Part shown: one piece after another, positions 26,961 to 51,609 of the stretch
Layout of the letters: every line of letters begins with the position of its first letter
Position numbering within the stretch: position 1 is the first letter of the stretch
Source: a virus
Taxonomy: Duplodnaviria > Caudoviricetes
DNA length: 62,713 nt
IMG/VR virus record: IMGVR_UViG_3300044769_000040
Coordinates: 1-62,713 of that record
Strand: one strand, 5' to 3'
Notes under the pieces: generated by a model
Told to the model about the DNA's origin: nothing
The model's input: the letters and a program-made list of their open reading frames with translations, nothing else
The model's database searches: none
Translations under genes and position numbers: made by a program

Positions 26961-27000
26961 TCAATCTGAGAGTGAGACGAAAGTCTCACTCTCGGATTGA
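26961..27000 (+). terminator. 18-bp hairpin with GAAA loop (terminator or processing stem)
   Basis: TCAATCTGAGAGTGAGAC-GAAA-GTCTCACTCTCGGATTGA. Confidence 0.7.
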
Positions 27001-27026
27001 ACGTTAGGAAAGGAGGTGAACAACAT

Positions 27027-27242
27027 ATGAACAAGCACATGGCCCGCAAGGCCACCCTGGCCCTGGTCGCCGTTGCAACCCTTTCCGGAATCGGAATCGG
27101 ACAGGCGACAGCTGGTGGTGGGACAGTCCGCGTACGCGTGCCGGTGTGTGCCGAGGACGAGACCTTCCTCAAGGGGAAGGGGGACTTCGACGGCCGACGC
27201 TGGGACCGCTACGTGTGCATCCACCCTGACAACCTGAAGTAG
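27027..27242 (+). CDS. Small secreted protein
   Basis: Strong SD; signal peptide; two Cys. Confidence 0.7.
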   Translation: MNKHMARKATLALVAVATLSGIGIGQATAGGGTVRVRVPVCAEDETFLKGKGDFDGRRWDRYVCIHPDNLK

Positions 27243-27251
27243 GGTGGACCC

Positions 27252-27281
27252 GGGAAGCCGGTCCGAAAGGGCCGGCTTCCC
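27252..27281 (+). terminator. Intrinsic terminator-like hairpin
   Basis: GGGAAGCCGGTCC-GAAA-GGGCCGGCTTCCC followed by TTAT. Confidence 0.7.
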
Positions 27282-27303
27282 TTATGCTCTATTGACAATA
27301 CTG

Positions 27304-27600
27304 GGAACACAACTTTCGACCCTGGGAGTAATTCGGCTACTTCCTAGGAACACAACTTTTCTGCATGGGACTAATTCGGCGCGGGCGGGTTGGGCTACCC
27401 TTCGGGCACATCTTTCCACAGGGCGCGGGGGGCCTATCCATCATCATAAGCAGGGGATGTTACCTCTATACCGTATTGAGGCTCTTATAACAATTAGGGC
27501 GGGTTATACTTAGTATAATAGTCAGATACCTAGTAGTCTTATTACATTATACTACATATAACTAATCCTAAGTATATATAACTAAAGGAAAAGGTGAATA
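27304..27600. other. Putative replication origin (43-bp-period tandem repeat plus AT-rich tract)
   Basis: GGAACACAACTTT-N6-TGGGA(G/C)TAATTCGGC at 27304 and 27347; very AT-rich 27484-27600; non-coding. Confidence 0.5.
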
Positions 27601-27659
27601 GGTGGTGCCGCTGGTCCACTTGCCGCAAGTCCACTACCTAGTCATTATCCCGTTCATGA

Positions 27660-27968
27660 TCATTCAGGGGGCCCCATCTTCCCAGCCCTCTTCATTATCT
27701 CCTGAACCGACTCCGCCAACTCCTCAGAGTCTTCCCCCGAACTCGAAATCGTTCCGTGCCCGCCAGAAGAGTTAGGCCGAGGGCCACCATGAGACCTGGT
27801 GCACCAAACCCAAAAGTAGGATGCTGGAAAGAAATCATCCTCCTGATGGGAGACCTTTACTAGGAGCTGGTCGTCTCGGTACGCAACCTGGTAGTTGTCC
27901 TTCGCACCGAGCATAGCGGCTATATCCACTATGAGTTCGGCCCGCTCCTCGTCTTTCTTCCTAGACAT
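27660..27968 (-). CDS. Hypothetical protein, lone reverse-strand early gene
   Basis: ATG 27968 after AAGGAGGTG; has its own promoter. Confidence 0.7.
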   Translation of the reverse strand: MSRKKDEERAELIVDIAAMLGAKDNYQVAYRDDQLLVKVSHQEDDFFPASYFWVWCTRSHGGPRPNSSGGHGTISSSGEDSEELAESVQEIMKRAGKMGPPE

Positions 27969-27990
27969 AGACGTCACCTCCTTACCTCTT

Positions 27991-28019
27991 ATTCTATAAG
28001 GGTCCAGAGGAAGACTCAA
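27991..28019 (-). promoter_or_regulatory. SigA-like promoter TTGAGT-17-TAGAAT
   Basis: Matches the promoter family of this genome. Confidence 0.7.
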
Positions 28020-28088
28020 GGGTTCGAAATTGAGGCTAGCTCCTATGATTTCCCAGTAGTGTAACAAAGGAACCCATGGTAGTGAGGC

Positions 28089-28117
28089 TTGTCAACCGTA
28101 CTCGGGACTGCTATAAT
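28089..28117 (+). promoter_or_regulatory. SigA-like promoter TTGTCA-17-TATAAT
   Basis: Near-consensus; divergent from the 27991 promoter. Confidence 0.75.
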
Positions 28118-28172
28118 ATAAGATGATAGGGGAAAGACTACCAAGCCAAGAGCCTAGAGGGAGGTGAATGGA

Positions 28173-28463
28173 ATGGCGAAGCGGGCAGAGTATGTCCACA
28201 CAGGCTTCGGTCGATGGAAGTGGGTCGACAAGGAGTTCTGCGATCGGTGTGGCCGAGAGGTAGTTGTGCCTTGGGAAGCACACCGAGAGAACGGACACAA
28301 GCTGTTCGGTGTGTACGAATGCATCGACAGTGGGTGCTACAATGCAGTCCGCAACGGACAAGATGCGAACAGGCCAGACGGTCCGTTGTTGCACTTCGTG
28401 GGGGCGTTAGAGGAATCGATGCACCGCCCACCAGCAGCAGTCCTGAACGGAGAAACACTATGA
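28173..28463 (+). CDS. Hypothetical Zn-finger-like protein
   Basis: SD GGAGGTG; CDRC...CIDSGC. Confidence 0.65.
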   Translation: MAKRAEYVHTGFGRWKWVDKEFCDRCGREVVVPWEAHRENGHKLFGVYECIDSGCYNAVRNGQDANRPDGPLLHFVGALEESMHRPPAAVLNGETL

Positions 28464-28627
28464 GGACAGAAGACGAAGACACGTGGGAAGCAGAGTACTG
28501 GGACGAGTACCTGAAGGAGTTCGGCAGGGCCGCATATGTCGAATCTCGTTACGGAGTAGGGAAGGAGGAGTCGGAATGGACTCCGGAGGTTGGTCAACAG
28601 GAACAAGTCGTCCCCAACGCCGCGTAA
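28460..28627 (+). CDS. Small acidic hypothetical protein
   Basis: ATGA overlap; MRTEDEDTWEAEYW. Confidence 0.5.
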   Translation: MRTEDEDTWEAEYWDEYLKEFGRAAYVESRYGVGKEESEWTPEVGQQEQVVPNAA

Positions 28628-28728
28628 GGGTGACAAAGACCAAGGTCACCAAACGCGACAGGACGGACGAGATACTCCCACTCGACCCTCGAGACCCTGA
28701 CATCGTCCGGGCGAAGGGACTGAAGTGA
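28576..28728 (+). CDS. Small hypothetical protein (LPLDPRDPDIVRAK motif)
   Basis: SD AAGGAGG; 50 aa. Confidence 0.55.
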   Translation: MDSGGWSTGTSRPQRRVRVTKTKVTKRDRTDEILPLDPRDPDIVRAKGLK

Positions 28729-28731
28729 GCC

Positions 28732-28905
28732 ATGAACAACGTAGTGTACCACATGACGGTGAAGGAACCAGGACGGCACGCCTTCACCGAACACAAGTTC
28801 GTGTACGACTCGGAGACAGACGCTTGGGACGCGTACGTGAAGGCGACACAGGCGGGCTTCGAGGCGCGTGTGGAGAAGGTCGTCCGACGAAAGGTGGGTG
28901 TGTAG
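28732..28905 (+). CDS. Small hypothetical protein (57 aa)
   Basis: Manual translation MNNVVYHMTVKEPG...; fills the gap. Confidence 0.55.
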   Translation: MNNVVYHMTVKEPGRHAFTEHKFVYDSETDAWDAYVKATQAGFEARVEKVVRRKVGV

Positions 28906-29003
28906 TGAGCCTGAAGGGCAAGACACCACAACAGCGCCAGAAGGTGCTGAACAGGCGAGTCCGCAAACTGCAACGGCTGGCACGGCGCCGCAACAGGTCG
29001 TAA
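28905..29003 (+). CDS. Very basic 32-aa peptide
   Basis: MSLKGKTPQQRQKVLNRRVRKLQRLARRRNRS, coupled to previous stop. Confidence 0.4.
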   Translation: MSLKGKTPQQRQKVLNRRVRKLQRLARRRNRS

Positions 29004-29063
29004 GCGTTTGGTCATCCTCACAGAGGATGGCTATGGGTTTACGAACTAGGGAGGTGAAAACAA

Positions 29064-29387
29064 ATGCCTGAGTACAAGAAGGTCTACCCAGTAACGAACG
29101 ACCTACGGGAGCAGCTGAAGGAGCTTCTCGCGGCGGACCCGAAGTCGAGCCTAGCGTCCGATCGGAATCCCGAGTACAGTCGGGATCGTATCGTCGGCAC
29201 TGCACTAGAGTACATCGGCGAGTACGAACACGGGTCGGTCGACGTCTTGGACCTATTCAATGGTCTGTACTGGACGCCCGAGTCGAACGAGCAGGGTCTG
29301 AAGGTGATGGCCGTGGTGCTCGAGGACTTCGTCGGCTCATTGTTCATGGGCCTTGGAGGAACCAAAGAACGGGATTGGACGAACTGA
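29064..29387 (+). CDS. Hypothetical protein
   Basis: 107 aa, SD GGAGGTG. Confidence 0.75.
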   Translation: MPEYKKVYPVTNDLREQLKELLAADPKSSLASDRNPEYSRDRIVGTALEYIGEYEHGSVDVLDLFNGLYWTPESNEQGLKVMAVVLEDFVGSLFMGLGGTKERDWTN

Positions 29388-29428
29388 AGTTCCACGAAGG
29401 TCAACGAGTTGTTCCTAGAGGACAGGGG

Positions 29429-29458
29429 TTGATTCTTCCGAGTGGGCTGTGATATAAT
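29429..29458 (+). promoter_or_regulatory. SigA-like promoter TTGATT-18-TATAAT
   Basis: Promoter family match. Confidence 0.7.
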
Positions 29459-29481
29459 CAAGATAGGAGGTGAGACACCCC

Positions 29482-29763
29482 ATGGCCAATGGTGGACCTC
29501 AAGGGCACATGCACTCAGAGAACGATCCTGACGTGTGCTTCTGCGACGCAGGTGGTATGGACCCGAACGACGTGCTCGTCCAACAGTACGCCTATGAACT
29601 AGGTATCACTGACGAGGACAATTGGGACCTGATGGACGAACTACGCGAAGCCGTTGCTGGTGACGAAGACATCGTCACTGCACGTTCACAGACGTCCGCT
29701 CTCGAGGAGTTTGGTCCTAACGGACCCGACAGTGAACCTGATGACCCGAGGGCGTACGAGTAG
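29482..29763 (+). CDS. Acidic hypothetical protein
   Basis: SD GGAGGTG; Asp/Glu-rich. Confidence 0.7.
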   Translation: MANGGPQGHMHSENDPDVCFCDAGGMDPNDVLVQQYAYELGITDEDNWDLMDELREAVAGDEDIVTARSQTSALEEFGPNGPDSEPDDPRAYE

Positions 29764-29766
29764 GGA

Positions 29767-29817
29767 CTAACCTGCTGGGCTGGGTATTGGAGACAGTACC
29801 TACGCCCTGTGGGCTAG
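29767..29817 (+). other. Long intergenic hairpin with GAGA loop
   Basis: GGTATTG-GAGA-CAGTACC core with extended imperfect stem. Confidence 0.55.
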
Positions 29818-29854
29818 CAAAAGAAACACGCCCGCGGCAGATAGGGGGAAACAC

Positions 29855-30040
29855 ATGGCAAGGACCGTCATAAGGGTCGAAAGGCTTCCTGAGGTGCCCC
29901 CGAAGCTCGACGTCGCGTACCTGAAGTGGATTCGAGGGCGGGTCGCTGGGGGCAGTATCTCAGAGTCAGCAGCGATCGCAGGCATCAGGGCACGTGCACC
30001 GTACCTGTCACTGAAGCAGGCGAAGGTCAAACTGGGGTAG
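29855..30040 (+). CDS. Hypothetical protein
   Basis: 61 aa, SD. Confidence 0.6.
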   Translation: MARTVIRVERLPEVPPKLDVAYLKWIRGRVAGGSISESAAIAGIRARAPYLSLKQAKVKLG

Positions 30041-30128
30041 GTGCTTGAACGTCGTGCACAGGGAAGGACCGGTACCGGCTAGCCACCTACGGTGTAGGCA
30101 CCCGCTCCTGTGCACGGCCTTGAGGTAC
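30041..30128 (+). ncRNA. Structured RNA element, GAACGUC/GGCCUUG family copy 1
   Basis: GTGCTT-GAACGTC-GTGCACAGG...CCTGTGCAC-GGCCTTG-AGGTAC. Confidence 0.6.
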
Positions 30129-30153
30129 AAGCCTCAACCTAAGGAGGTGGATA

Positions 30154-30327
30154 ATGGCCGAGGCAGTGATTGGCAAGTTCACCAAGAGCGGTGAGACGAA
30201 GAACTTCGTCAAGTACTCGCGGGAGAACGAGCTGGGTCGCACGGAGACTCAGTACGTCTCGAACGCGAAGGCGGAGGAGCTGGGCAACCCGAACGAGGTC
30301 GAGGTTGTCATTCGGAACGTAACGTAG
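30154..30327 (+). CDS. Small hypothetical protein (57 aa)
   Basis: AAGGAGGTGG SD; MAEAVIGKFTKSGETKNFVKY. Confidence 0.7.
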   Translation: MAEAVIGKFTKSGETKNFVKYSRENELGRTETQYVSNAKAEELGNPNEVEVVIRNVT

Positions 30328-30344
30328 ACGGCAGCACCAAGAAC

Positions 30345-30484
30345 ATTGGGAGGCACGAGGCCCACCCTCCTCATCGGGGGCAACGATCATAACACTACGG
30401 CTTGGTCCGACCGTAGGGCCTCCCAATATCACCCTTCGTGGGTGACGGTCAGAGCCTAGCTCTTCAGGTCTGGGCTCCGGCCGT
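30345..30484 (+). ncRNA. Candidate structured RNA (multiloop plus two hairpins)
   Basis: ATTGGGAGGC/GCCTCCCAAT closing stem, CTACGG/CCGTAG, TCACCC/GGGTGA, ACGGTC/GGCCGT. Confidence 0.45.
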
Positions 30485-30504
30485 AGTCTACGAAAGAGGG
30501 AGAC

Positions 30505-30681
30505 ATGGGAGAACTTGTGTGGACGGAGAACTGGAAGAAGCTGAAGGAGGCTGGACTCACATTCAAACAGGCGAAGCTGGTTCACAGTTTTCTCGACCAG
30601 CAAAGCGTCTTCGGATACCAGTGGGTATCCGACTCAGCCTGGCGCCAGCTCGAAGAGGTGTACAGCGAAGTCCGAGTCTAA
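30505..30681 (+). CDS. Small hypothetical protein (58 aa)
   Basis: SD GAGGGAG; MGELVWTENWKKLKEAG. Confidence 0.65.
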   Translation: MGELVWTENWKKLKEAGLTFKQAKLVHSFLDQQSVFGYQWVSDSAWRQLEEVYSEVRV

Positions 30682-30780
30682 CGAAGGATTGAACGTCTGG
30701 CACAGACGACGCGAGCGTCTTCTTCCTCCGGCCATGGGGTGCGAGACGCTTTCCGGATGTGCCAGGCCTTGAATCCTTCG
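30682..30780 (+). ncRNA. Structured RNA element, GAACGUC/GGCCUUG family copy 2
   Basis: CGAAGGATT-GAACGTC-TGGCACA...TGTGCCA-GGCCTTG-AATCCTTCG. Confidence 0.6.
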
Positions 30781-30822
30781 ACTAGGGAGGTGGTCATGCG
30801 GGCCAATGGTAGCTAAAGGGCC

Positions 30823-30938
30823 CTGTGCCCAGCGTCGTACACGGTTAGACGTATCCATTGGGGATATAAACCAGGAGCGTCGTGGGAAAGTCGACGCAGT
30901 CAAGCTCCTGTACATACCGTGTGCGGCGCTAGGGACAG
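30823..30938 (+). ncRNA. Candidate structured RNA, divergent relative of the family
   Basis: AGCGTCGTACACGGT/ACCGTGTGCGGCGCT closing helix around internal hairpins. Confidence 0.5.
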
Positions 30939-30985
30939 CGGCTAAACGAGCTAACGCCCTATATAACAGGACTAAAGGGGGTCAG

Positions 30986-31216
30986 ATGGACAGACCAGGC
31001 ATCAACGCAGGAACAGGTAGTCCAGCAATGCGTTGCGTCTACGTTGATTGGGTCCGAGACGAAGCAAAGGCGGCTTTCGACTGGGACACAGAAGTGTGTG
31101 GACGACCTGGAGTAGGGATGTACGAACAGAAGCCGTACTGCGACGAGCACATGAGGGAGGTGGAAAAAGCATATTGGGCACGGCAACGAAACGACCAAGC
31201 CTCACAGGCCGACTAA
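30986..31216 (+). CDS. Hypothetical Cys-containing protein
   Basis: Start re-called after AAAGGGGG; C...C...YCDEH. Confidence 0.6.
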   Translation: MDRPGINAGTGSPAMRCVYVDWVRDEAKAAFDWDTEVCGRPGVGMYEQKPYCDEHMREVEKAYWARQRNDQASQAD

Positions 31217-31383
31217 CTGAACCGAGGGTGCTGGCGAACACGAAACGTCTTGCACGACTTGTTCTCCAAAACGAAGATCCACAGTCGGTCCAGTACGAGG
31301 ACTACATCTCAGGTCGACGGTACGTGATCCACCTCAGCAACAACCATCGCCTCGAGTTGTTCGTCCCGTTCGAAGTGAACTAA
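31174..31383 (+). CDS. Hypothetical protein (start uncertain)
   Basis: 3' part of ORF 31048..31383 fills the gap before a promoter. Confidence 0.45.
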   Translation: MGTATKRPSLTGRLTEPRVLANTKRLARLVLQNEDPQSVQYEDYISGRRYVIHLSNNHRLELFVPFEVN

Positions 31384-31413
31384 AGGAATTCGGAAAAGAT
31401 TCCAGGATTGGTC

Positions 31414-31443
31414 TTGCCTTTGCCCTTTGGGGTGTCATATAAT
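31414..31443 (+). promoter_or_regulatory. SigA-like promoter TTGCCT-18-TATAAT
   Basis: Promoter family match. Confidence 0.7.
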
Positions 31444-31496
31444 TGGGTAAGAGCAAGAAAGGTACCAACCGATTTGTACGAGAGGAGGTGACAACC

Positions 31497-31781
31497 ATGG
31501 CGCGCAGCAACGGCAACGGCGAGACTCAGGAGCCCGCGGTCGACAGCAACATCGTTACCCCGGTCGCCCTCGCCAAGGAGCTGGGTATCCGTCCGCAGAT
31601 CGTGTTCGGATGGACCCGCAGCGGCAAGCTGCCTGTGCACTACTGCGTCTGCAGCCACCAGTACGTCCAGCGGGACGAGGTGGCGGAGTTCCTTGCAGAG
31701 CGGGAGGCGGCCAAGCTGGCCAAGGAGGCCAAGATCGCCGAAGAGCTCGAAGCAGAGCAGGCGGAGGCGATCGCCGTCTAA
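31497..31781 (+). CDS. MerR/Xis-like HTH protein
   Basis: TPVALAKELGIRPQIVFGWTRSGKL; strong SD. Confidence 0.8.
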   Translation: MARSNGNGETQEPAVDSNIVTPVALAKELGIRPQIVFGWTRSGKLPVHYCVCSHQYVQRDEVAEFLAEREAAKLAKEAKIAEELEAEQAEAIAV

Positions 31782-31783
31782 AG

Positions 31784-31844
31784 CCAACCTCAACTGAAGG
31801 GCTCGGGACACAGAGAAGGTTCCGAGCCCTTTGGTGGACGTTGG
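31784..31844 (+). other. Long intergenic hairpin
   Basis: ACTGAAGGGCTCGGGA/TTCCGAGCCCTTTGGT stem. Confidence 0.6.
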
Positions 31845-31851
31845 AGGGAAC

Positions 31852-32322
31852 ATGACTGAAGCATATGGATTCACCGGTACCCGAAAGGGTATGACGGGCG
31901 CGCAGCGGAGACACGTGCGCGCGATGCTTCAGTCTGCTCGAGAACTACACCACGGAGACGCCATAGGTGCTGACGCTGACACGTCTATGGCTGCTCACCT
32001 CGAGAACGCTCAGAGGGCCTCTGTCGATGAAACCCCGATTGTCATCTGGGTACACCCTCCGATCGACGACAAGTACAGGGCGTATTGCAAAGGAGATGTC
32101 TGGCTTTCGCCTAAGCCGTACTTGGAACGGAACGCCGACATCGTCAACATGCTCCCACCTGGGGGTCAGGTGATTGCCACGCCGCGCCAACTTCGTAACA
32201 AGGAACCACAGGGATATCTACGCGGTGAGGGGACATGGTGGACAGTCCGTTACGCACTCAATGCAAATCGGCCTGTACACATTATCTACCCAGATGGCGT
32301 CTACGAACTGAGGACACCATGA
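31852..32322 (+). CDS. SLOG-family (DprA/YspA-like) nucleotide-binding protein
   Basis: GFTGTR, HHGDAIGAD, ERNADIV, GTWWTVRYA motifs. Confidence 0.75.
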   Translation: MTEAYGFTGTRKGMTGAQRRHVRAMLQSARELHHGDAIGADADTSMAAHLENAQRASVDETPIVIWVHPPIDDKYRAYCKGDVWLSPKPYLERNADIVNMLPPGGQVIATPRQLRNKEPQGYLRGEGTWWTVRYALNANRPVHIIYPDGVYELRTP

Positions 32323-32510
32323 AGCCAGGCGAAGAAGAATGCACGGATCCTAAGGGTCGAGAGCTGGTGTCGATTGACATCGACATCAAGCCTATTCCAA
32401 GGCACGACCTTGCCCTCATAGTCACCGGTATGTGTACACGATGCGGGGGCATCGACGAGGAACGCATACACGAGTACATGCAGAACGTTCCCAAACCGTT
32501 CAAGCGATGA
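32319..32510 (+). CDS. Hypothetical protein
   Basis: ATGA overlap; CTRC. Confidence 0.55.
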   Translation: MKPGEEECTDPKGRELVSIDIDIKPIPRHDLALIVTGMCTRCGGIDEERIHEYMQNVPKPFKR

Positions 32511-32523
32511 GGGAGGTGAGCAC

Positions 32524-32718
32524 GTGGAAGAGGTATACTACGGACTCGACCAGACCGATAACACGGTCTACAAAGTCACACTGCAGTGGGAGGTCGACGA
32601 AGCAGGAGTCAAGACAGGTCGGCCTGACGTGATCGTCGAACCGATTGCCGAGTTCGAACGACGGGACAACGCGAAGGCGTTCGTCCGAGCCTGGAACCAA
32701 GACACAGGTCCGGACTAG
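32524..32718 (+). CDS. Hypothetical protein
   Basis: 64 aa, SD GGAGGTG. Confidence 0.65.
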   Translation: MEEVYYGLDQTDNTVYKVTLQWEVDEAGVKTGRPDVIVEPIAEFERRDNAKAFVRAWNQDTGPD

Positions 32719-32762
32719 TACTGAACGCCTACACGAGTCCAAGAAGGAAGGGAGGTGATTAC

Positions 32763-33080
32763 ATGGGACAGCACGAGCACAAGTCGAAGCGGGGCGTCTG
32801 GGCGCACGATGACCATTCGTCGATGCCTAGAGGCCACGGACACGGCGGTGCCAAGTACGTTGGTCCAGTCGAAGAGGCTAACGTCGCCGCTGAGCCGGTA
32901 GACCTGACTGAGGAGAGCCTTTCGGGAGGAGGGGATATCATCCTGACACTTGCCATCAAGTGCAGGGATGACGAGGACGTGAGTGACCTCACCTATCTGC
33001 TCTTCGGGCCGTACGACGACGCGAAGAACTTCGGCGAGTTCGTATCACAGCACCAGTTCATTATCACGAGGGAGGGTTGA
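32763..33080 (+). CDS. Hypothetical protein, His-rich N-terminus
   Basis: 105 aa, SD GGAGGTG. Confidence 0.65.
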   Translation: MGQHEHKSKRGVWAHDDHSSMPRGHGHGGAKYVGPVEEANVAAEPVDLTEESLSGGGDIILTLAIKCRDDEDVSDLTYLLFGPYDDAKNFGEFVSQHQFIITREG

Positions 33081-33280
33081 TGGCACTCGGCGTCTGTGAG
33101 GTCCATGGAGGTGAGCCGACGGAAGTCGAGCACATCCAATTCTGTGGCGAGTCCGTCAAAGTCTGCCTATCCTGCTTGGAGACACAGACAGGCACGTCAA
33201 GCAAAGCCGAGTTCCAGGACATACAAGACGACAGGTACTACGAGTACAAGACTAAGCTGCTGGAGGCGGCAGGTAAGTAG
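33077..33280 (+). CDS. Hypothetical Zn-finger-like protein
   Basis: CEVH...CLSC. Confidence 0.6.
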   Translation: MMALGVCEVHGGEPTEVEHIQFCGESVKVCLSCLETQTGTSSKAEFQDIQDDRYYEYKTKLLEAAGK

Positions 33281-33423
33281 TACCTCGAACGTCCTGCACA
33301 GGTCAGGTAGACCCCCGTGGAGAATCTACGCCACTAAGTGGAGAACCGTAGCCACGTCTAAGGGGTTCAATACGGCTCGAGTGGATGGAAGGTCCACGCC
33401 TGTGCAGGGCCTTGGAGGTACTA
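33278..33423 (+). ncRNA. Structured RNA element, GAACGUC/GGCCUUG family copy 3
   Basis: TAGTACCTC-GAACGTC-CTGCACAGG...CCTGTGCAG-GGCCTTG-GAGGTACTA. Confidence 0.65.
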
Positions 33424-33439
33424 ATCAAACGGAGGACAC

Positions 33440-33574
33440 ATGAGAGACCCAGGGCCACCTGAACACGAAGACCCACTAGCACCAGCGAGGGGATGTCTCT
33501 TCGGCATTCTGTTTAGTGTCCTGATCGTCATGGCAGTCTTGTTCGTTCTCTTTGTACTAGCAGTAAGGGGGTGA
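33440..33574 (+). CDS. Small membrane protein (44 aa)
   Basis: SD GGAGG; single hydrophobic helix. Confidence 0.6.
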   Translation: MRDPGPPEHEDPLAPARGCLFGILFSVLIVMAVLFVLFVLAVRG

Positions 33575-33575
33575 C

Positions 33576-33764
33576 ATGCCGAAGAGCAGAACACATGCGA
33601 AGCGCCGAGCAAGGCAGAAGGGTGTTCCACATGATCACAGGCACTACGTCCCAGGATGTATGCGCTGCGAACTAAGCAAGGACGAAGTGCAACCGGCCAA
33701 GAGGGTTCAGGCGGAGGAGCCCAAGGAGAGTTACACGATTGACGACATCTCCGGACGAGCTTGA
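33576..33764 (+). CDS. Hypothetical protein
   Basis: 62 aa; HDH...CMRC. Confidence 0.55.
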   Translation: MPKSRTHAKRRARQKGVPHDHRHYVPGCMRCELSKDEVQPAKRVQAEEPKESYTIDDISGRA

Positions 33765-34113
33765 GGAAGAACTGGAAGAACTGATGGCAGACCTACCGAA
33801 CGAACCGGAAGAGATCGAGGCAGAGCTCAAGCTTCACATGCAACAGTACGAGGAGCTGAAGGACAGCTGGCGTAAGAAGGACCGGCTTCAAGCCCAGTAC
33901 CATCTCGGGCACGTCGCCGGTATCATAAAGACGTTGATGGCACTCGGGCACACGGACTGGATGAACCAGATCATAGACGAGTTGCAAGTCGAGTCCGATG
34001 AGCAGTGGCTCCAGACCGAAGGTGGGAAGGCGATGACCGCAGGCGATGAATGGATGGGTCGTCAGGTCTATCGCATGTCCCGCGGTCGCGAACCGTACCC
34101 AGGTAAGGGATGA
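33739..34113 (+). CDS. Hypothetical protein
   Basis: 124 aa helical; SD AAGGAG. Confidence 0.65.
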   Translation: MTTSPDELEEELEELMADLPNEPEEIEAELKLHMQQYEELKDSWRKKDRLQAQYHLGHVAGIIKTLMALGHTDWMNQIIDELQVESDEQWLQTEGGKAMTAGDEWMGRQVYRMSRGREPYPGKG

Positions 34114-34152
34114 TGACATATTGGCACACACAGGCACCCTGCGTTAGGGATC

Positions 34153-34452
34153 GTGATCGCCTGGCTAGAAACCAGGGAGGATGATGTGGATGAGCTCCTA
34201 GGCATCCACGGGACAGACAAGACAGTCGACGTCGAGGAGATGCTGGTCTCCATTCGAGACCTAGTCAACTTCTCTTCGTGGCTGGCTCTGCAGGCCTACT
34301 CGGAGAGGCATCCTGACACCATCGCACATGAAGACTTCCCAGAACATGTCGCACACGCGATCGGGGTTCTCAAGGACATGGCTCTGCAGATGCCACTAGT
34401 AGACGTCGAAGGAGATGATGATGTCCCAGGAGGAGGCAACGGCGGCAGTTGA
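34153..34452 (+). CDS. Hypothetical protein
   Basis: 99 aa; start uncertain. Confidence 0.55.
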   Translation: MIAWLETREDDVDELLGIHGTDKTVDVEEMLVSIRDLVNFSSWLALQAYSERHPDTIAHEDFPEHVAHAIGVLKDMALQMPLVDVEGDDDVPGGGNGGS

Positions 34453-34597
34453 CAAGTTCAGCCGTCACGTGCAAGCATGCTTTACCTGCCAACCTCTTTG
34501 GAACGTATACTGTGACGAGGGAGTCAGACTGAACGACGAAGCCAACGAGCAGGCAGCCCTATGGATAAAGGAACAGACCCGCCGTAGGCGAGGTTGA
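34415..34597 (+). CDS. Hypothetical protein
   Basis: 60 aa; H...CFTC...C. Confidence 0.55.
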   Translation: MMMSQEEATAAVDKFSRHVQACFTCQPLWNVYCDEGVRLNDEANEQAALWIKEQTRRRRG

Positions 34598-34622
34598 TTG
34601 TGTCTAAGGGTTGCTATAGAAT
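34594..34622 (+). promoter_or_regulatory. SigA-like promoter TTGATT-17-TAGAAT
   Basis: Promoter family match. Confidence 0.7.
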
Positions 34623-34632
34623 TGGAGATAGT

Positions 34633-34902
34633 ATGGAAGAGAAGGATGTCATCGTCACCAAACCTTTCATGGGAGTAGACTGGGGCATCTGGGGCCTCTG
34701 TCACATGCAAGTGTGTGCTCATGGTGAAGTACCCCCTGAGCGGATTGAGGAAGTTGCCAACCTAGAGAATCCGCCAGGCAGTTCTGCACCATGGTCAATC
34801 ACCAACGAGTTCGACCCTGGTGACGGTCTCGAACCTGTTGACCTATCACCAGTGCAGTGCGAGGACAATCCAGTGCGACTCCACTACATGTTGAGCTGCT
34901 GA
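34633..34902 (+). CDS. Hypothetical protein
   Basis: MQVCA...PVQC...HYMLSC; just downstream of promoter. Confidence 0.65.
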   Translation: MEEKDVIVTKPFMGVDWGIWGLCHMQVCAHGEVPPERIEEVANLENPPGSSAPWSITNEFDPGDGLEPVDLSPVQCEDNPVRLHYMLSC

Positions 34903-35045
34903 TGAAAGTCTGGGTCGAGATTGACCGAGGTGGCATCACGGAGACCCGTGCAGTTAGTGGCACTAAGGAAGAGGTAGAGGATCAACTCGCTCACTGGATA
35001 CGTCAGTACGGTCAAGAGAACGTGAAGGTGGTGAAGGATGGATGA
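34902..35045 (+). CDS. Small hypothetical protein
   Basis: TGATG coupling. Confidence 0.55.
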   Translation: MKVWVEIDRGGITETRAVSGTKEEVEDQLAHWIRQYGQENVKVVKDG

Positions 35046-35730
35046 GCCTGATGGTTGGCCTTACGGAGATGATGACGTGGAGCTAACACAGGAACAGATA
35101 GGGTACACGTCGGAGCGTGTAGGGGGAATCTGGACCCTCACGGTCCTGTGTGTAGCCGAAACACCAGATGGAGGTAAGACGACAAGTGCGTGGACCCCGT
35201 TCCAGGAGGAAAGCGAGGAAGCAGTTGTACAAGCTGCAACACGGAGATGGCCAGAGCTCAAGGTTGTTTCCCAGTTCGAGTGGGACAAAGTCTTCTTCAA
35301 GAAGTGGGGAGGAGGACGCCCCTCCAGTTTCCTTGGAGGCACGGGCAAGCGGGTGGCAGCCGAGCGAGGGTCAAGGGGTGGTTTTGGGCGCATGGCTCCA
35401 CAGGGGTCACCGGGGCTTAGTGCTGCAGGTCTACCCGAAACATGGGGAACACGTACGAGTTCTGTGTCTCGAGGACGGTCGGGAAGTAACAGTGCACGCT
35501 CGACTGTTGATGCGAGCACAGTAGTAGCCAAGGCCAAAGATGGTAGCTGGCCCCTTGATGAGTGGGTACCGATTGTACAGCTCGCCAAGAGACTTGGCTA
35601 CCCTCCGCAGTACTTGTACAACGCAGTGTACCACGGCAAGATAAAGACACAGGGCGAACGTCCTAAGAAGGCTCTGTGGAAGGATGTCTTGGCCAAGTAC
35701 CGCCCTGACATCCTAAAGGAGGTGAGGTAG
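35038..35730 (+). CDS. Protein with C-terminal MerR/Xis-like HTH
   Basis: PIVQLAKRLGYPPQYLYNAVYHGKI. Confidence 0.7.
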   Translation: MDEPDGWPYGDDDVELTQEQIGYTSERVGGIWTLTVLCVAETPDGGKTTSAWTPFQEESEEAVVQAATRRWPELKVVSQFEWDKVFFKKWGGGRPSSFLGGTGKRVAAERGSRGGFGRMAPQGSPGLSAAGLPETWGTRTSSVSRGRSGSNSARSTVDASTVVAKAKDGSWPLDEWVPIVQLAKRLGYPPQYLYNAVYHGKIKTQGERPKKALWKDVLAKYRPDILKEVR

Positions 35731-35773
35731 AGTATAGTGCTACACTGTCTCGACACCTTGAAAGGGGTGACAA

Positions 35774-36397
35774 TTGAAGAAGGTTCTGGCAGTAATGACA
35801 GCTGTTACTGCCGTTGTCGTAATCGGACTAGCGCTGCTACCAGCAGCGTCAGCCGATGCGGAGGCGAACAATTGGTTCGTTTGCAAGTACGTCGGGCCAC
35901 CGGGTACACCAGATGAGACACTGGCAGGTGGGAACAATCCGATCTTCGTGGACGAGAATGCCATCGACGTTTCCCCAGTAGTTATTGGGGCGACGTTCGG
36001 TGACGCTCAGACCCATTCGGTCGTGATTGCTGGCCCATTCAGTCCAACCGATAAGCCAGACCCAGAGCCGACGTGCCCGACGACAACGACAACGACAACG
36101 ACAGTACCACCGCCTACGACAACAGCTCCACCACCGCCAGTAACATCTTGCCCTGGCAAGGTGAAGCTCGGACCGTGGTATGGAGATCCGCAGATCAACA
36201 TCACGTTGACCGGCAAGGGGACGTTCGTAGTCAGTGGAGGGAAGCAAAGGTTCAGCGGCATCCACAAATTCACGGAGACGTTGGACTGTAATGTAACGTT
36301 CAAGATTGGCCGCTACAAGGTTAGTCGCGGACACTTCTTGACGATCACGCAAGACGGCGTAGTGGTGGTGCATCAGAAGCCGCCACGGTTCAACTAG
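35774..36397 (+). CDS. Secreted protein with Thr/Pro linker
   Basis: Signal peptide ending ASA; WFVCKYVGPPG; PTTTTTTTTVPPP. Confidence 0.75.
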   Translation: MKKVLAVMTAVTAVVVIGLALLPAASADAEANNWFVCKYVGPPGTPDETLAGGNNPIFVDENAIDVSPVVIGATFGDAQTHSVVIAGPFSPTDKPDPEPTCPTTTTTTTTVPPPTTTAPPPPVTSCPGKVKLGPWYGDPQINITLTGKGTFVVSGGKQRFSGIHKFTETLDCNVTFKIGRYKVSRGHFLTITQDGVVVVHQKPPRFN

Positions 36398-36448
36398 TCG
36401 CTTGCGTCTCAGGCTCTCGAAAGAGAGTCTGGGGCGGAGGTGATAACA

Positions 36449-36565
36449 ATGGAGCAGAAGGATTACGGCACAGCTTGGCTGTTGACAGGTCTCGTGATTG
36501 GTGCTATCCTAGGCGGCTTCCTAGTCTACCTTTGGGCACTAGCCAACCCGCAGAGTCTGACGTAG
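36449..36565 (+). CDS. Small membrane peptide (38 aa)
   Basis: SD GGAGGTG; one hydrophobic helix. Confidence 0.6.
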   Translation: MEQKDYGTAWLLTGLVIGAILGGFLVYLWALANPQSLT

Positions 36566-36775
36566 GTGATGTGGGAAATCCGGGAGGTGCTCGGCATGAA
36601 GATACGCGAGTTCAGAGTTCAAGCCTGGGACCACAGCGGTACGAAGATCGTTGACTCGAAGTTCAGAGACAGAGTACTGATGCTTCAGAACCTCGAACAC
36701 CAAACGAACCGAACCGATCTTGACGTTGCCAGCCTCAAGGTCGACATCAAGGTCGTCGATCAGAATGACACATAA
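36566..36775 (+). CDS. Hypothetical protein
   Basis: 69 aa. Confidence 0.5.
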   Translation: MMWEIREVLGMKIREFRVQAWDHSGTKIVDSKFRDRVLMLQNLEHQTNRTDLDVASLKVDIKVVDQNDT

Positions 36776-36804
36776 GAAATCCACATGAACCTTTCAAAAA
36801 TGGG

Positions 36805-36834
36805 TTGAGGTTTCCCCAAGGTCTGTGGTATAAT
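36805..36834 (+). promoter_or_regulatory. SigA-like promoter TTGAGG-18-TATAAT
   Basis: Promoter family match. Confidence 0.7.
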
Positions 36835-36866
36835 CAAAATGAGAGAGGAAGGAGGTGACAAACATC

Positions 36867-37208
36867 ATGGCACAACTGGAACTGAAGGAGCTCCCGGACG
36901 GTCTTTCCGAGGACGACTACGTGAAGCCGGTGAAGCTTGCCAAGGAGCTTACAGAGGCCGAGGGCAAGGACGTGCGTCCGCAGATCGTCTACGGTTACAT
37001 CCGCAACGGTGGACTCCAGGCCTACACGAAGGGCGGCGAGGGTCGTTTCATCATCCGCTCCGAGTTCGATGCCTGGGTTCAGGAGAAGGCCCAGAAGAAG
37101 GCTGAGCGCGAGGCCAAGGCTGCGGAGAAGGCAGCCAAGAAGGCCGAGAAGGAGGCTGCTGGCGAGGCTGCAGGTGCAGAAGAGGGCACTGAGGAGTACG
37201 CCGGCTAA
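36867..37208 (+). CDS. MerR/Xis-like HTH protein with Lys/Ala/Glu tail
   Basis: KPVKLAKEL...VRPQIVYGYIRNGGL; strong SD. Confidence 0.8.
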   Translation: MAQLELKELPDGLSEDDYVKPVKLAKELTEAEGKDVRPQIVYGYIRNGGLQAYTKGGEGRFIIRSEFDAWVQEKAQKKAEREAKAAEKAAKKAEKEAAGEAAGAEEGTEEYAG

Positions 37209-37221
37209 GACCGATCACATC

Positions 37222-37666
37222 GCGAGCAGAGGGCTTCGGCCCTCTGCCTCGCTTTGAGGACTGATGGGAAAAGCGTCGCCATGGCGAAGTATGCGAGTAC
37301 TGTCAGTCCTCAAAGGGAGGCCGGTCAAGCGGACTTCGAAAGGCAGACAATCAGCTGTCGGCTCTGGGAAGTTGTCGATAGTGGTCTAGCCGAGTAGTCG
37401 AGGGGTACCCGAGGGTGGTCGTCGGATGGCCGGTCTCCCACCAACTTCATAGTGGCAACCTCGTGTTGGATGGTCGGTTTCGAGGGTAGTAGATATCGGT
37501 CTGCAGACCGGTTGAGGCAGGCACTGTGACGGGGGATCCGTGACATAGCCATGGTGGGAGCAGAAGAGATCGACCCCGACCTCCAAGCAGTAGGATCGAC
37601 CATCCAATAGGGGGCTGCCGCCTCCAAGAGAAGGCTCCTCCTCCTCCCCGAGTGGAGCCTTCTCTT
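37222..37666 (+). ncRNA. Candidate large structured non-coding RNA (five consecutive helical domains)
   Basis: Stems 37222-37252, 37252-37315, 37315-37439, 37454-37619, 37626-37666; no credible ORF. Confidence 0.6.
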
Positions 37667-37684
37667 TAGCCCTAATGACTCTCC

Positions 37685-37713
37685 TTGATATTTCCTAGAG
37701 GATGCTATAGAAT
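37685..37713 (+). promoter_or_regulatory. SigA-like promoter TTGATA-17-TAGAAT
   Basis: Promoter family match. Confidence 0.75.
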
Positions 37714-37739
37714 AGGAATAGAGAGGAGAAGGAGGCAAA

Positions 37740-38258
37740 GTGGAAACGGCCCCTACCGATTCCAAAGCACCACCAGCTATCTGGCTTCACGTCCAGAAGG
37801 TGTACGATGCAATGGAGGCCCAGTCGGCCATGCTCGACGTAAGCCATCCTGAGGACACTCCTCGTTTGTACGAAGGGTTCACCTCGCACCTGTTCCAGGA
37901 GCTTGGCATCGCTGTTCCTAACTACGGACCGGTGCTAGACCTCTTACGTGCGATGGGGTGTATCACACAAGAGAAGAGGGGTGGAGGACCTTCACCCAGT
38001 GTGTGGAGGCTGTGGAGGAAACCCACCCTCGAAGACTTCGAACATGCCCACAAGACGTTGCCTCAGGCACAGATCAAGGTGCGTAAGGAACAGCACGAGG
38101 AGCAACGAATCCTCGACCTGATGAGGCAGCTCGGAGGTGTCGACGTACCTCAGGCGTTGGTTGACCTTCAAAACCAGATCAACGTTCTAGAGGGAGCCTT
38201 CAAGGGCCACATCAAGAGTCTCCACGGGAGTGATCATACACATGCAGACCTCGGCTGA
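37740..38258 (+). CDS. Hypothetical protein, possible winged helix plus coiled coil
   Basis: LDLLRAMGCITQEKRGGG wing-like motif; strong SD. Confidence 0.65.
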   Translation: METAPTDSKAPPAIWLHVQKVYDAMEAQSAMLDVSHPEDTPRLYEGFTSHLFQELGIAVPNYGPVLDLLRAMGCITQEKRGGGPSPSVWRLWRKPTLEDFEHAHKTLPQAQIKVRKEQHEEQRILDLMRQLGGVDVPQALVDLQNQINVLEGAFKGHIKSLHGSDHTHADLG

Positions 38259-48120: not shown

Positions 48121-48421
48121 CACGGCCTGGATGGAACTGGGTGCATGCCAGGATAGAGATGAAGACGGCAAGATCTTCTTCCCCGATCCAGGCAACAATG
48201 CCGTCATGGCAAAAAGGATGTGTGCGCGTTGTCCCGTTAGGGAGAGATGTCTTGACTGGTCGATAGAGACCCGACAGATGTACGGGATCTGGGGAGGAGT
48301 GTCAGAGAAGAAGCGTCGTCAGATGATGCACCTTCGTTACGGTAGGACTCCATACTATGCAATCATGGAGGAGGATGATGAAGACATCAGCAATAGTCCT
48401 GCTGTCGGGGGGACTCGATAG
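48077..48421 (+). CDS. whiB: WhiB-family transcription factor
   Basis: AC...FFP...CARCPVRERC...YGIWGG. Confidence 0.92.
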   Translation: MVEVNGSTRLLSRANTAWMELGACQDRDEDGKIFFPDPGNNAVMAKRMCARCPVRERCLDWSIETRQMYGIWGGVSEKKRRQMMHLRYGRTPYYAIMEEDDEDISNSPAVGGTR

Positions 48422-49085
48422 CACGACTGCGTTCTACAAGGCAATGTGGGAACGAGATGATGTCCGAGCGATCTCGTTTGACTACGGGCAACGGCATCGC
48501 AAGGAACTTGAAGCCGCTAGTTACTTCTCACGCCTACACGATGTGCCATGGCACGTTGTCAACCTTCAGACTCTTGGTGGGCTTCTGAAAGGTAGTTCGC
48601 TTAGCGATCCGGACGTCGAAGTTCCTGAAGGTCACTATGCCAAAGACACAATGAAGGCAACGATCGTTCCCAACCGCAACAGTATCATGCTAAGCTGTGC
48701 AGTCGGAGTTGCAGTTGGAAACAAGTTCCAAGAGGTCTGGGCAGCGATGCATGCAGGTGACCATGCCATCTACCCTGACTGTCGACCCGAGTTCATCGAG
48801 AAGCTGAACGAGCTTATCCCGATCGCCAACGCGTGGGAGGATCCTATCCCCAGAGTCATCACGCCCTTTATTGACTACACCAAAGACATGATTGTCAGGC
48901 TCGGATCCGACATGGGTGTCCCTTACGAACACACCTGGAGCTGCTACGAAGGTGGAAAGGTCCACTGCGGCAAGTGTGGGACCTGCGTTGAGAGGCAAGA
49001 AGCCTTCTACCTCGCAGGCGTTCAAGACCCGACCGAGTACGCTGACACCGAGTACTGGAAGGCAGAAACCGGAGTCTCTTCATGA
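48378..49085 (+). CDS. queC: 7-cyano-7-deazaguanine synthase
   Basis: LSGGLDS, VPNRN, YPDCR, SCY...HCGKCGTC. Confidence 0.95.
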   Translation: MKTSAIVLLSGGLDSTTAFYKAMWERDDVRAISFDYGQRHRKELEAASYFSRLHDVPWHVVNLQTLGGLLKGSSLSDPDVEVPEGHYAKDTMKATIVPNRNSIMLSCAVGVAVGNKFQEVWAAMHAGDHAIYPDCRPEFIEKLNELIPIANAWEDPIPRVITPFIDYTKDMIVRLGSDMGVPYEHTWSCYEGGKVHCGKCGTCVERQEAFYLAGVQDPTEYADTEYWKAETGVSS

Positions 49086-50814: not shown

Positions 50815-50828
50815 ACTGGGAGGGTTAT

Positions 50829-51590: not shown

Positions 51591-51609
51591 GAAACTGGAG
51601 GCGCATCTG

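What the first reader, a model, noticed from the sequence alone, without database searches (positions are those of the whole stretch)
30041..33423. Repeated RNA cassette: conserved covarying closing helix around different structured inserts
Seen: three intergenic elements (30041-30128, 30682-30780, 33278-33423), each starting at a stop codon, share outer stem-GAACGUC-NNGCACA-[insert]-UGUGCNN-GGCCUUG-outer stem. Outer stems differ in sequence yet always pair (GUGCUU/AGGUAC, CGAAGGAUU/AAUCCUUCG, UAGUACCUC/GAGGUACUA). The NN positions covary (GU/AC, UG/CA, CU/AG). The G.G and C.C mismatches are invariant. The ~45-100 nt inserts are unrelated but each folds. Inference: selection at RNA level for a protein-recognised helix, such as an RNase III-type site that excises a set of small RNAs from the early transcript, or a sponge for a host RNA-binding protein. 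From memory (unverified), GCACAG..GACGCGAGC in copy 2 resembles actinobacterial pre-23S processing stems. This is the best candidate for an undescribed system.
Basis: partly seen in the sequence, partly recalled or inferred. Interest (0 to 1): 0.85.

Follow-up and report, generated by a model that had tools for sequence, protein, structure and literature searches.

The report
Conserved phage RNA helix, variable loops
An uncultured sediment phage carries three (perhaps four) copies of a long RNA hairpin between its early genes, all built on the same conserved stem with two fixed mismatches but holding different loops; it is a real RNA element with no match in Rfam, its function is unproven, and it most likely marks sites where the early messenger RNA is cut or bound by a protein.

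Summary
All three elements are at the stated coordinates. Both 14-nt half-motifs occur exactly three times, only on the + strand. Each element runs from a stop codon to 16-26 nt before the next start codon.

A related metagenomic phage supplies orthologues of two copies. Third-codon identity between the phages is only 58%. The c1 arms are still 22/22 and 22/23 identical, while the c1 loop has diverged to near random. In c2 the core and loop are kept, and the outer stem changed through two double compensatory substitutions. Over five sequences 90/90 pair cells are standard pairs and 8/18 pairs covary.

There is no Rfam match. No copy turned up in IMG/VR, in 45 relatives or in GTDB genomes. The loops alone fold no better than shuffles. 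A sample of Actinomycetota genomes gave no support for the recalled pre-23S resemblance.

Best reading (0.35): an RNase III-type intercistronic processing site, about 22 bp long with central mismatches, as in T7 or SP82 early mRNA. Rivals are an RNA-binding-protein operator, a passive stabiliser and a DNA-level element. It is a new RNA motif, so far confined to one phage lineage.

The parts
30041..30128 (+). Cassette c1. Outer stem 30041-30046 / 30123-30128; conserved core 5' half 30047-30060 and 3' half 30109-30122; loop 30061-30108. It follows the TAG stop at 30038-30040 of a 61-aa gene. The next ATG is at 30154.
   Evidence: 81.3 bits. The orthologue L086:4996-5086 has 22/22 and 22/23 identical arms and an unrelated loop.
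30682..30780 (+). Cassette c2. Outer stem 30682-30690 / 30772-30780; core 30691-30704 and 30758-30771; loop 30705-30757 with a CCUCC-containing apical part. It follows the TAA stop at 30679-30681 of a 58-aa gene. An SD and the 6-codon mini-ORF 30796-30816 follow.
   Evidence: 91.4 bits. In the orthologue L087:243-334 the outer stem changed by two double compensatory substitutions, and the loop is 48/53 identical with one compensatory pair. Mini-ORF.
33278..33423 (+). Cassette c3. Outer stem 33278-33286 (includes the TAG stop of a 66-aa gene) / 33415-33423; core 33287-33300 and 33401-33414; 100-nt loop 33301-33400. The next ATG is at 33440.
   Evidence: 81.4 bits. No orthologue was found.
30823..30938 (+). 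Possible fourth, diverged copy (c4). It has 4 bp, G.G, 2 bp, C.A, then 15 bp that include the same GUC/GGC step with its U.G wobble, and a 70-nt loop. It starts 6 nt after the mini-ORF stop.
   Evidence: My hairpin scan and pairing print-out. Model R1 gives it only 15.6 bits, E 0.1. It is conserved in L087:403-515, but there the C.A is a C-G pair and the outer stem has an extra mismatch. Membership is uncertain.
29429..29458 (+). Sigma-70-like promoter (10/12 match, TG-extended) that would drive the transcript carrying c1. Similar sites lie at 28089 and 31414.
   Evidence: Consensus scan: 12 promoter-like sites in 27000-38000 against 3.6 expected. This is pattern evidence only.

Best explanation
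The cassettes are cis-acting RNA elements in the phage's early polycistronic transcripts. Each is a helix of 20-26 stacked positions, about two A-form turns. Its middle carries an invariant, sequence-specific module: G.G, two A-U pairs, C.C, G-C, U.G, C-G, a free 2-bp step, then GCACA/UGUGC.

I think this module is the recognition and cleavage site of a double-strand-specific endoribonuclease, most likely the host RNase III. Cutting there would separate the upstream cistron, the loop and the downstream cistron. If the mismatches restrict cutting to one strand, the upstream mRNA would be left with a protective 3' hairpin. This would set the relative stability and translation of the early genes, as in T7 and SP82 early mRNA. 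The loop is a variable passenger: unconstrained in c1, and constrained, so probably functional, in c2.

Shown: the structure, its strand, its conservation and its position.
Inferred: the enzyme, the cut and the consequences.
For: (1) The helix is real and on the sense strand. 90/90 pair cells are standard pairs, 8/18 pairs have changes on both sides, and 0/500 shuffles reach the covariation score. Slid controls give 21-44% paired. 8 of the 90 cells are G.U, which would be A.C on the other strand. Model R1 scores 81-91 bits on + and 22-26 on -, though R1 was built from the + strand.

(2) The constraint is on sequence, not only on structure. The c1 arms are 22/22 and 22/23 identical in a phage whose flanking genes are 100/171 (58%) identical at third codon positions. 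24 core nucleotides are invariant in 5/5 sequences.

(3) The geometry fits. The stacked helix has 23, 23 and 26 positions in the window and 21-24 in the orthologues, with the mismatch module near the middle. The RNase III review PMC3867540 (passages read) describes an idealised 22-bp, two-turn substrate with central cleavage sites. It says mismatches or loops at the target site give single-strand cuts that leave stabilising 3' hairpins. It also says T7 early mRNA has five such signals.

(4) The position fits. Each cassette lies between a stop codon and the next SD/ATG inside operons. No U-tract follows, and no promoter-like or terminator-like site is called at the cassettes.

(5) B. subtilis RNase III is called a narrow-specificity enzyme with phage SP82 targets (PMC4838370, passages read). 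That would explain sequence-conserved sites.

(6) Weak hint: contigs of two RNA libraries (X21, X22) both begin at 30132, 4 nt after the c1 helix, with no loose end listed. A contig of a third (X19) runs through c1.
Against: No cleavage or RNA-end data exist. The runs were contigs, which cannot show ends or strand, and RNA libraries can hold DNA. The shared contig start at 30132 lies outside the helix, not in it, and no DNA run was laid beside it.

The host, and so its RNase III specificity, is unknown; the best cultured-phage capsid matches are only about 31% identical. RNase III sites normally need no 48-100-nt loop, so this reading does not explain the loops or the conserved c2 loop.

The family is tiny: 3-4 paralogues plus 2 orthologues. 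Part of the covariation comes from sequences that were used to define the structure. Nothing like it was found in 45 related phage records. Invariant non-Watson-Crick positions fit a dedicated RNA-binding protein just as well.
Confidence: 0.35

Rival explanations
1. The helix is an operator for a sequence-specific RNA-binding protein that binds without cutting. The protein could be an orphan early phage protein or a host protein. The mismatch-widened helix would be its binding site, and binding would control translation of the gene that starts 16-26 nt downstream, or modify the transcribing polymerase as nut/put-type sites do.
For: The non-Watson-Crick positions are invariant, 24 nt are invariant, and there is a free 2-bp step. 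The arms are conserved far beyond what structure needs. The helix ends 16-26 nt before the next start codon, at the edge of a ribosome-binding region by general knowledge. The first early operon can encode a 32-residue arginine-rich peptide at 28905-29003. I scanned 43 distinct + strand products against Pfam and/or PHROGs, 44 counting the two overlapping starts tried for one ORF. None matched an RNA-cutting enzyme family. Most of the roughly 22 early products (28.2-38.3 kb) matched no family at all, so orphan binders are available.
Against: No candidate protein is identified by any test, and the arginine-rich ORF may simply be the end of a longer 92-aa ORF in the same frame. The SD sequences lie outside the helix. 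The three downstream genes are unrelated, so a common regulator has no obvious logic.
Confidence: 0.2
2. The hairpins are passive mRNA stabilisers or insulators. They would block 3' exonucleases and bring the stop codon close to the next ribosome-binding site. Their shared sequence would then reflect recent duplication or gene conversion, not recognition.
For: The helices are very stable. Each begins at a stop codon and ends just before the next SD. The loops alone are thermodynamically unremarkable, and the c1 loop is free to diverge.
Against: A passive hairpin does not need invariant mismatches that weaken it, nor 24 invariant nucleotides around a covarying 2-bp step. Recent duplication would have copied the NN step and the outer stems too. 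The arms stay identical across phages that are 58% identical at third codon positions.
Confidence: 0.15
3. The element acts at the DNA level. The arms would be recombination or mobility sites, giving cassette exchange as with T4 PeSLs, integron attC-like folded single strands, or a MITE-like element. The hairpin would be incidental or would form in single-stranded DNA.
For: The c1 loop is replaced between relatives while both arms are identical. The gene upstream of c2 differs in the relative, with the break at the cassette edge. The elements sit at gene boundaries directly after stop codons. [quoted passage not shown]
Against: The flanks are complementary and differ between copies, whereas target-site duplications would be direct repeats. 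G.U pairs, including an invariant one, make the fold strand-specific on the transcribed strand. No promoter-like site lies in the cassettes. No integrase or transposase family matched among the 43 + strand products scanned; not every ORF was scanned, and two HNH endonuclease matches lie 23 kb away. No copies exist elsewhere in the genome or in any other record searched.
Confidence: 0.1

Closest known systems
RNase III processing signals in the bacteriophage T7 early polycistronic mRNA
   Same: Both are repeated hairpins between cistrons of an early phage transcript made by the host polymerase. Both have about two helical turns with a conserved non-Watson-Crick interruption in the middle, and neither has a terminator U-tract. 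The five T7 signals, the single-strand cuts at mismatches or loops, and the stabilising 3' hairpins are described in PMC3867540 (passages read).
   Different: There is no sequence relation. This interruption is two 1x1 mismatches around two A-U pairs, whereas I recall the T7 sites as having a larger asymmetric internal loop. This helix closes a 42-100-nt variable loop, whereas I recall the T7 hairpins as short-capped. Cleavage is not shown here.
[quoted passage not shown]
   Same: Both are sequence-conserved intercistronic hairpins in phage early mRNA, in a host whose RNase III is called narrow-specificity (PMC4838370, introduction passages read, citing Panganiban and Whiteley 1983).
   Different: I did not see the 1983 paper or the SP82 sites; their strong mutual sequence similarity is recalled. 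The host here is unknown and no similarity was tested.
PeSLs (promoter-early stem-loops) of T4-like phages
   Same: Both are short conserved motifs repeated at boundaries of small early genes, and both are associated with swapping of unrelated sequence between close relatives (PMC4122927, abstract read).
   Different: PeSLs are composite terminator/promoter DNA motifs that flank ORFs. These cassettes hold no promoter-like site. They flank non-coding loops and show RNA-type covariation and G.U pairs.
Integron attC sites
   Same: Both are imperfect hairpins of roughly 60-150 nt that follow the stop codon of a small gene, with two paired boxes, fixed unpaired positions and a variable terminal part (recalled general knowledge).
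   Different: The outermost pairs, which are the conserved crossover core in attC (recalled), are the variable part here. No integron integrase was found among the products scanned. The fold is favoured on the transcribed strand.
Bacterial Y RNAs (Ro/Rsr-binding)
   Same: In both, a conserved closing helix with fixed irregularities is bound by a protein and encloses a variable module (recalled general knowledge).
   Different: There is no Rfam match even at E up to 5 over 27500-37500. No Ro-like family matched among the products scanned. The element is embedded in mRNA between cistrons rather than being a separate gene.

Membership tests
Any Rfam 15 family | Covariance-model match at or near the gathering score | tested here: not met
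   0 matches at gathering score over the whole window. At E up to 5 over 27500-37500 there were only two chance-level snoRNA hits elsewhere.
Bacterial RNase III processing site | Double helix of about 20-22 bp (two A-form turns) | tested here: met
   The helix has 23, 23 and 26 stacked positions in c1-c3 and 21-24 in the orthologues. The 22-bp idealised substrate is described in PMC3867540.
Bacterial RNase III processing site | Site-specific cleavage by RNase III, giving defined ends in the helix | not testable with these tools
   Only assembled contigs of RNA libraries were available. They cannot show ends.
Bacterial RNase III processing site | Proximal/distal box sequence rules of the host enzyme | not tested
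   The host is unknown. The rules are known mainly for E. coli and are described as degenerate (PMC3867540).
Intrinsic (Rho-independent) terminator | G+C-rich hairpin followed directly by a U-tract | tested here: not met
   No T-run follows any copy. The terminator scan lists no site at the cassettes. An RNA-library contig bridges c1 and another bridges c3.
MITE / transposon with terminal inverted repeats | Terminal inverted repeats flanked by direct target-site duplications, with copies dispersed in the genome | tested here: not met
   The flanks are mutually complementary, not direct repeats, and differ between copies. All copies lie within 3.4 kb on one strand.
T4-type PeSL | Early promoter joined to a stem-loop | tested here: not met
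   None of the 12 promoter-like sites in 27000-38000 lies in a cassette.
Integron attC | Conserved outer core sites and a partner integron integrase | tested here: not met
   The outer stems are the variable part. No tyrosine-recombinase family matched among the 43 + strand products scanned. The scan was not exhaustive.
   The 15-nt 5' half is present in 40 of 301 sampled Actinomycetota genomes, at most 4 per genome and with varied NN, comparable to a reversed control. There are 7 scattered hits in one Streptomyces genome. The host is unknown and rRNA flanks were not examined directly.

The most novel reading that the evidence does not exclude
The conserved helix is a universal processing-and-presentation scaffold, a bacterial-virus counterpart of a pri-miRNA stem. 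It would let the phage cut interchangeable small RNAs out of its early mRNA. The loops would then be the payload: decoys, antisense RNAs or protein sponges aimed at the host. The conserved c2 loop, with its CCUCC stretch, would be a fixed payload. The c1 loop, which is less structured than shuffled sequence, would be a fast-evolving or swappable one, exchanged by recombination between the identical arms.
Probability: 0.12. Interest if true: 0.85.

Novelty: new variant of a known kind. Interest (0 to 1): 0.55.

Why it matters
If the helix is a processing or binding signal, it is a compact and portable rule for how a phage of an uncultured sediment host divides and tunes its early mRNA. The rule is about 22 bp with two fixed mismatches. 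Its specificity could help identify the host enzyme or a new phage RNA-binding protein.

The arms are conserved at the sequence level while one loop is free to change and another is conserved with covariation. That combination makes this a natural test case for modular RNA scaffolds in viruses. It also adds a well-supported motif that current RNA family libraries lack. The evidence so far comes from one lineage only, which limits the weight it can carry.

Tried and rejected
Known RNA families. Rfam at gathering score gave 0 matches over the window. A permissive scan of 27500-37500 gave only two chance-level hits elsewhere.

More copies in the window. Model R1 run with filters off found only c1-c3. 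The next + strand hits scored 16.7 bits or less.

Relatives.
- I searched 45 of the 80 capsid-related IMG/VR records, chosen for contig length. 0 of 45 matched R1 at E up to 1, including 0 of the 7 that are at least 90% complete.
- Two close relatives found through the helicase (92% identity) also gave 0 of 2, but their contigs stop before the early region.
- Early proteins of 156 aa and 94 aa found no relatives in IMG/VR.
- My hairpin scan of four complete distant relatives found no family of hairpins with shared arms. One unrelated pair appeared in G029 on the - strand.

Pattern scans.
- The full two-half pattern gave 0 hits in IMG/VR with gaps of 40-70 and 71-101.
- A relaxed 18-base pattern gave 66 loci. 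0 of 66 resemble the cassette. Only 2 had a complementary NN step, and these had 5 and 3 of 12 pairable flank positions and lacked the flanking trinucleotides.
- An 18-nt anchor taken from c4 gave 0 hits.
- In GTDB genomes the pattern hit two Streptomyces contigs, in what reads as an unbroken, very G+C-rich coding stretch; I ran no ORF or family call there. The NN step is not complementary, so I take these as chance.

Pre-23S or host mimicry. See: scattered single hits only.

Antisense targets of the loops inside the phage. The longest complements were 10-12 nt. The 12-nt match of the c2 loop to 29476-29487 is equalled or beaten in 21/200 shuffles, so I rejected it.

Loop folding beyond chance was not found.

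RNA libraries. In X20, X21 and X22 no listed contig covers any cassette. Standard libraries and assembly also lose small structured RNAs. Adapter-like loose ends at 29078, 31231, 33081 and 33892 rest on single low-depth contigs and were not used. No sequence variants fell inside the cassettes.

Host inference. Capsid tblastn gave only about 31% matches, to Arthrobacter, Ralstonia and Roseobacter phages.

Literature. A full-text search for the two heptamers found one unrelated paper. Searches were for comparators. No search found this motif described.

Supplementary files were not consulted.

Full report
WHAT THE WINDOW IS. The window is a complete 62,713-bp IMG/VR virus record with a CheckV completeness of 100%. 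Structural genes lie on the - strand from 1 to about 27 kb: terminase, portal, protease and major head protein. Early and replication genes lie on the + strand from about 28 to 60 kb: helicase, primase, DNA polymerase and exonuclease, plus a QueC/QueD/QueE/FolE set. The base-composition skew switches sign at about 28 kb. The early region has 12 sigma-70-like promoter matches against 3.6 expected, among them + strand sites at 28089, 29429 and 31414. The phage therefore appears to use the host polymerase. The nearest cultured phages share only about 31% capsid identity and infect diverse hosts, so the host is unknown. The region is held by 24 listed sediment, soil or freshwater-sediment runs, five of which may be the source. 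These include six runs on record as RNA.

The two 14-nt half-motifs each occur exactly three times, all on the + strand and at the stated places. Each element folds into the architecture described: outer stem, G.G, two A-U pairs, C.C, then 10-13 further pairs. Energies are -42.6, -54.8 and -70.9 kcal/mol, and 0/200 shuffles are as stable. Each begins at or in a stop codon and ends 16-26 nt before the next start codon, which has a strong Shine-Dalgarno sequence. A covariance model built from the three copies with only the closing helix as structure scores them at 81-91 bits. Nothing else on the + strand scores above 16.7 bits. One sub-claim fails a chance test: the loops alone fold no better than shuffles, with z +1.45, -0.77 and -1.18. 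The stability signal is in the stem.

A RELATED PHAGE GIVES THE KEY EVIDENCE. A single exact-pattern scan of JGI metagenome contigs returned two contigs from one metagenome.

L086 carries the orthologue of c1 between orthologues of the same two small genes. These genes are 50/62 and 34/58 identical in protein. Over three genes they are 100/171 (58%) identical at third codon positions. Against that background the 5' arm is identical at 22/22 positions and the 3' arm at 22/23. The single change turns a G.U into a G-C. The loop has no credible alignment: 31 matches against 26.6 +/- 2.3 for shuffled loops.

L087 carries the orthologue of c2 behind a different upstream gene. The core is identical. 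The outer stem differs by two double compensatory substitutions. The loop is 48/53 identical. Within its own helix there is one U-A to C-G double change and one G.U to G-C change, and the 21-nt apical part is untouched.

Over the five sequences all 90 pair cells are standard pairs, and 8 of 18 pairs show changes on both sides. No shuffle in 500 reaches the observed covariation score, and slid registers give 21-44% pairing. The caveat is that the alignment was fitted to a structure derived from three of these sequences, and the set is small.

STRAND AND LEVEL. Eight of the 90 cells are G.U, including an invariant U.G inside the core. These would be A.C mismatches on the other strand. My hairpin scan recovers the three-copy family on the + strand only. 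The flanks are complementary rather than directly repeated. This points to a sense-strand RNA. A top-strand single-stranded DNA fold cannot be excluded from sequence alone.

Contigs of RNA libraries cover much of the early region. One contig bridges c1 and another bridges c3 in run X19. In X21 and X22 a contig starts at 30132, 4 nt after c1, with no loose end listed. This is consistent with expression and is at most a weak hint of an end near the helix. Contigs cannot show ends, RNA libraries may hold DNA, and no DNA run was laid.

HOW FAR IT SPREADS. I found no other copies:
- 0 of 45 capsid-related records.
- 0 of 2 close relatives, whose contigs miss this region.
- No IMG/VR match to the exact pattern with either gap range.
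- 0 convincing among 66 relaxed-pattern loci.
- Only two chance matches in GTDB genomes, in what reads as Streptomyces coding sequence.
- Four complete distant relatives have no analogous shared-arm hairpin family.

A possible fourth, diverged copy lies at 30823-30938, right after a conserved 6-codon mini-ORF that follows c2. It has the same layout (4 bp, G.G, 2 bp, C.A, 15 bp) and the same GUC/GGC wobble step. Its mismatches are not kept in the relative, and the model gives it only 15.6 bits.

WHAT IT MOST LIKELY DOES. The facts to explain are four. First, about two turns of helix. Second, a sequence-invariant, mismatch-bearing module near its middle, next to a free 2-bp step. Third, conservation of arm sequence far beyond what pairing needs. 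Fourth, a fixed place between cistrons, with loops that range from unconstrained (c1) to conserved (c2).

The closest working model is an RNase III-type processing signal. The review PMC3867540 (passages read) describes an idealised 22-bp, two-turn substrate with central cleavage sites. It says mismatches or loops at the target restrict cutting to one strand and leave stabilising 3' hairpins, and it notes five such signals in the T7 early precursor. PMC4838370 (passages read) calls the B. subtilis enzyme narrow-specificity and cites phage SP82 targets. I put this reading at 0.35. The enzyme, the cut and its effects are all inferred.

The rivals are as follows:
- A non-cleaving RNA-binding-protein operator (0.2). 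Most early products scanned are orphans, and an arginine-rich 32-residue product is possible.
- A passive stabiliser or insulator (0.15). This is hard to square with the invariant destabilising mismatches.
- A DNA-level exchange or mobility site (0.1). The c1 loop swap and the changed gene upstream of c2 favour it. The G.U asymmetry, the complementary flanks and the lack of a recombinase hit argue against it.

I scanned 43 distinct + strand products against Pfam and/or PHROGs. None matched an RNase III, dsRNA-binding, RNA ligase, Ro or recombinase family. The scan was not exhaustive.

The recalled likeness to actinobacterial pre-23S stems found no support. The 15-nt 5' half occurs at scattered single sites in 40 of 301 sampled Actinomycetota genomes, at most four per genome, much like the reversed control. 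With the host unknown, this test is inconclusive rather than negative.

The sponge or small-RNA idea remains open. The c2 loop is conserved with covariation and carries a CCUCC stretch, the complement of the GGAGG-type ribosome-binding sites of this phage. The c1 loop is less structured than shuffled sequence. No significant antisense target exists inside the phage.

VERDICT. This is a real, strongly constrained, sense-strand RNA element with a modular build. It is absent from Rfam 15, and none of my literature searches found it described. So far it is confined to one uncultured phage lineage. It works most like phage intercistronic RNase III signals but is not shown to be one. The large variable loops and the fixed pair of 1x1 mismatches set it apart.

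Scores: interest 0.55; novelty, a new variant of a known kind. The boldest reading still allowed is a processing scaffold that releases interchangeable small RNAs, at a probability of about 0.12.

Noticed in passing
window 30435-30494: A 28-position hairpin lies in the 5' leader of the 58-aa gene (z -3.7; 1/200 shuffles as stable). By my count from the alignment it is about 55/57 identical in L086, although the two phages are only 58% identical at third codon positions. It looks like a second, unrelated constrained RNA element.
   Followed up: partly
window 30345-30432: A large hairpin is closed by a 10-bp helix whose arms are GGGAGG-like and CCUCCC-like. It lies between the 57-aa gene and the leader above. 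The closing helix is kept in L086 while the interior partly differs.
   Followed up: partly
window 30796-30816: A six-codon mini-ORF (MRANGS) with a strong Shine-Dalgarno sequence sits between c2 and the possible c4. Its first four codons and the sequence just after it are conserved in L087. It could be a leader-peptide-type device.
   Followed up: no
window 28905-29003: The end of an ORF encodes a 32-residue arginine-rich peptide, either as a separate GTG-started product or as the tail of a 92-aa ORF. It is a candidate arginine-rich RNA binder. This was not tested.
   Followed up: no
window 30119-30138: The 10 nt after c1 are identical in L086. With the 3' outer arm they can form an alternative small hairpin of 5-6 bp, which the centroid fold of 30100-30160 shows. 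It may be an alternative structure once the main helix is opened or cut.
   Followed up: partly
window 48357-52588: Matches to QueC, a 6-pyruvoyl-tetrahydropterin-synthase family protein (QueD-like), a radical-SAM protein (QueE-like, weak match) and GTP cyclohydrolase I lie together, with a DUF1996 protein among them. From general knowledge this suggests 7-deazaguanine modification of the phage DNA.
   Followed up: no
window 31414-31443 and 31784-31844: A sigma-70-like promoter and a 26-position hairpin followed by a short T-run bracket a single 94-aa gene. That gene matches an excisionase/transcriptional-regulator PHROG, and contigs of all four RNA libraries laid cover it.
   Followed up: no
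window 81-144 and 62649-62712: A near-identical hairpin-forming stretch occurs at both ends of the record, inside the open-ended tail-fibre-like ORFs. It may reflect a repeat within that gene or the permuted ends of the assembly.
   Followed up: no
L087 335-362: In the relative, a 23-nt insertion after c2 can pair with the 3' outer arm and is followed by a run of four U. I saw this by eye only. It could form an alternative terminator-like hairpin.
   Followed up: no
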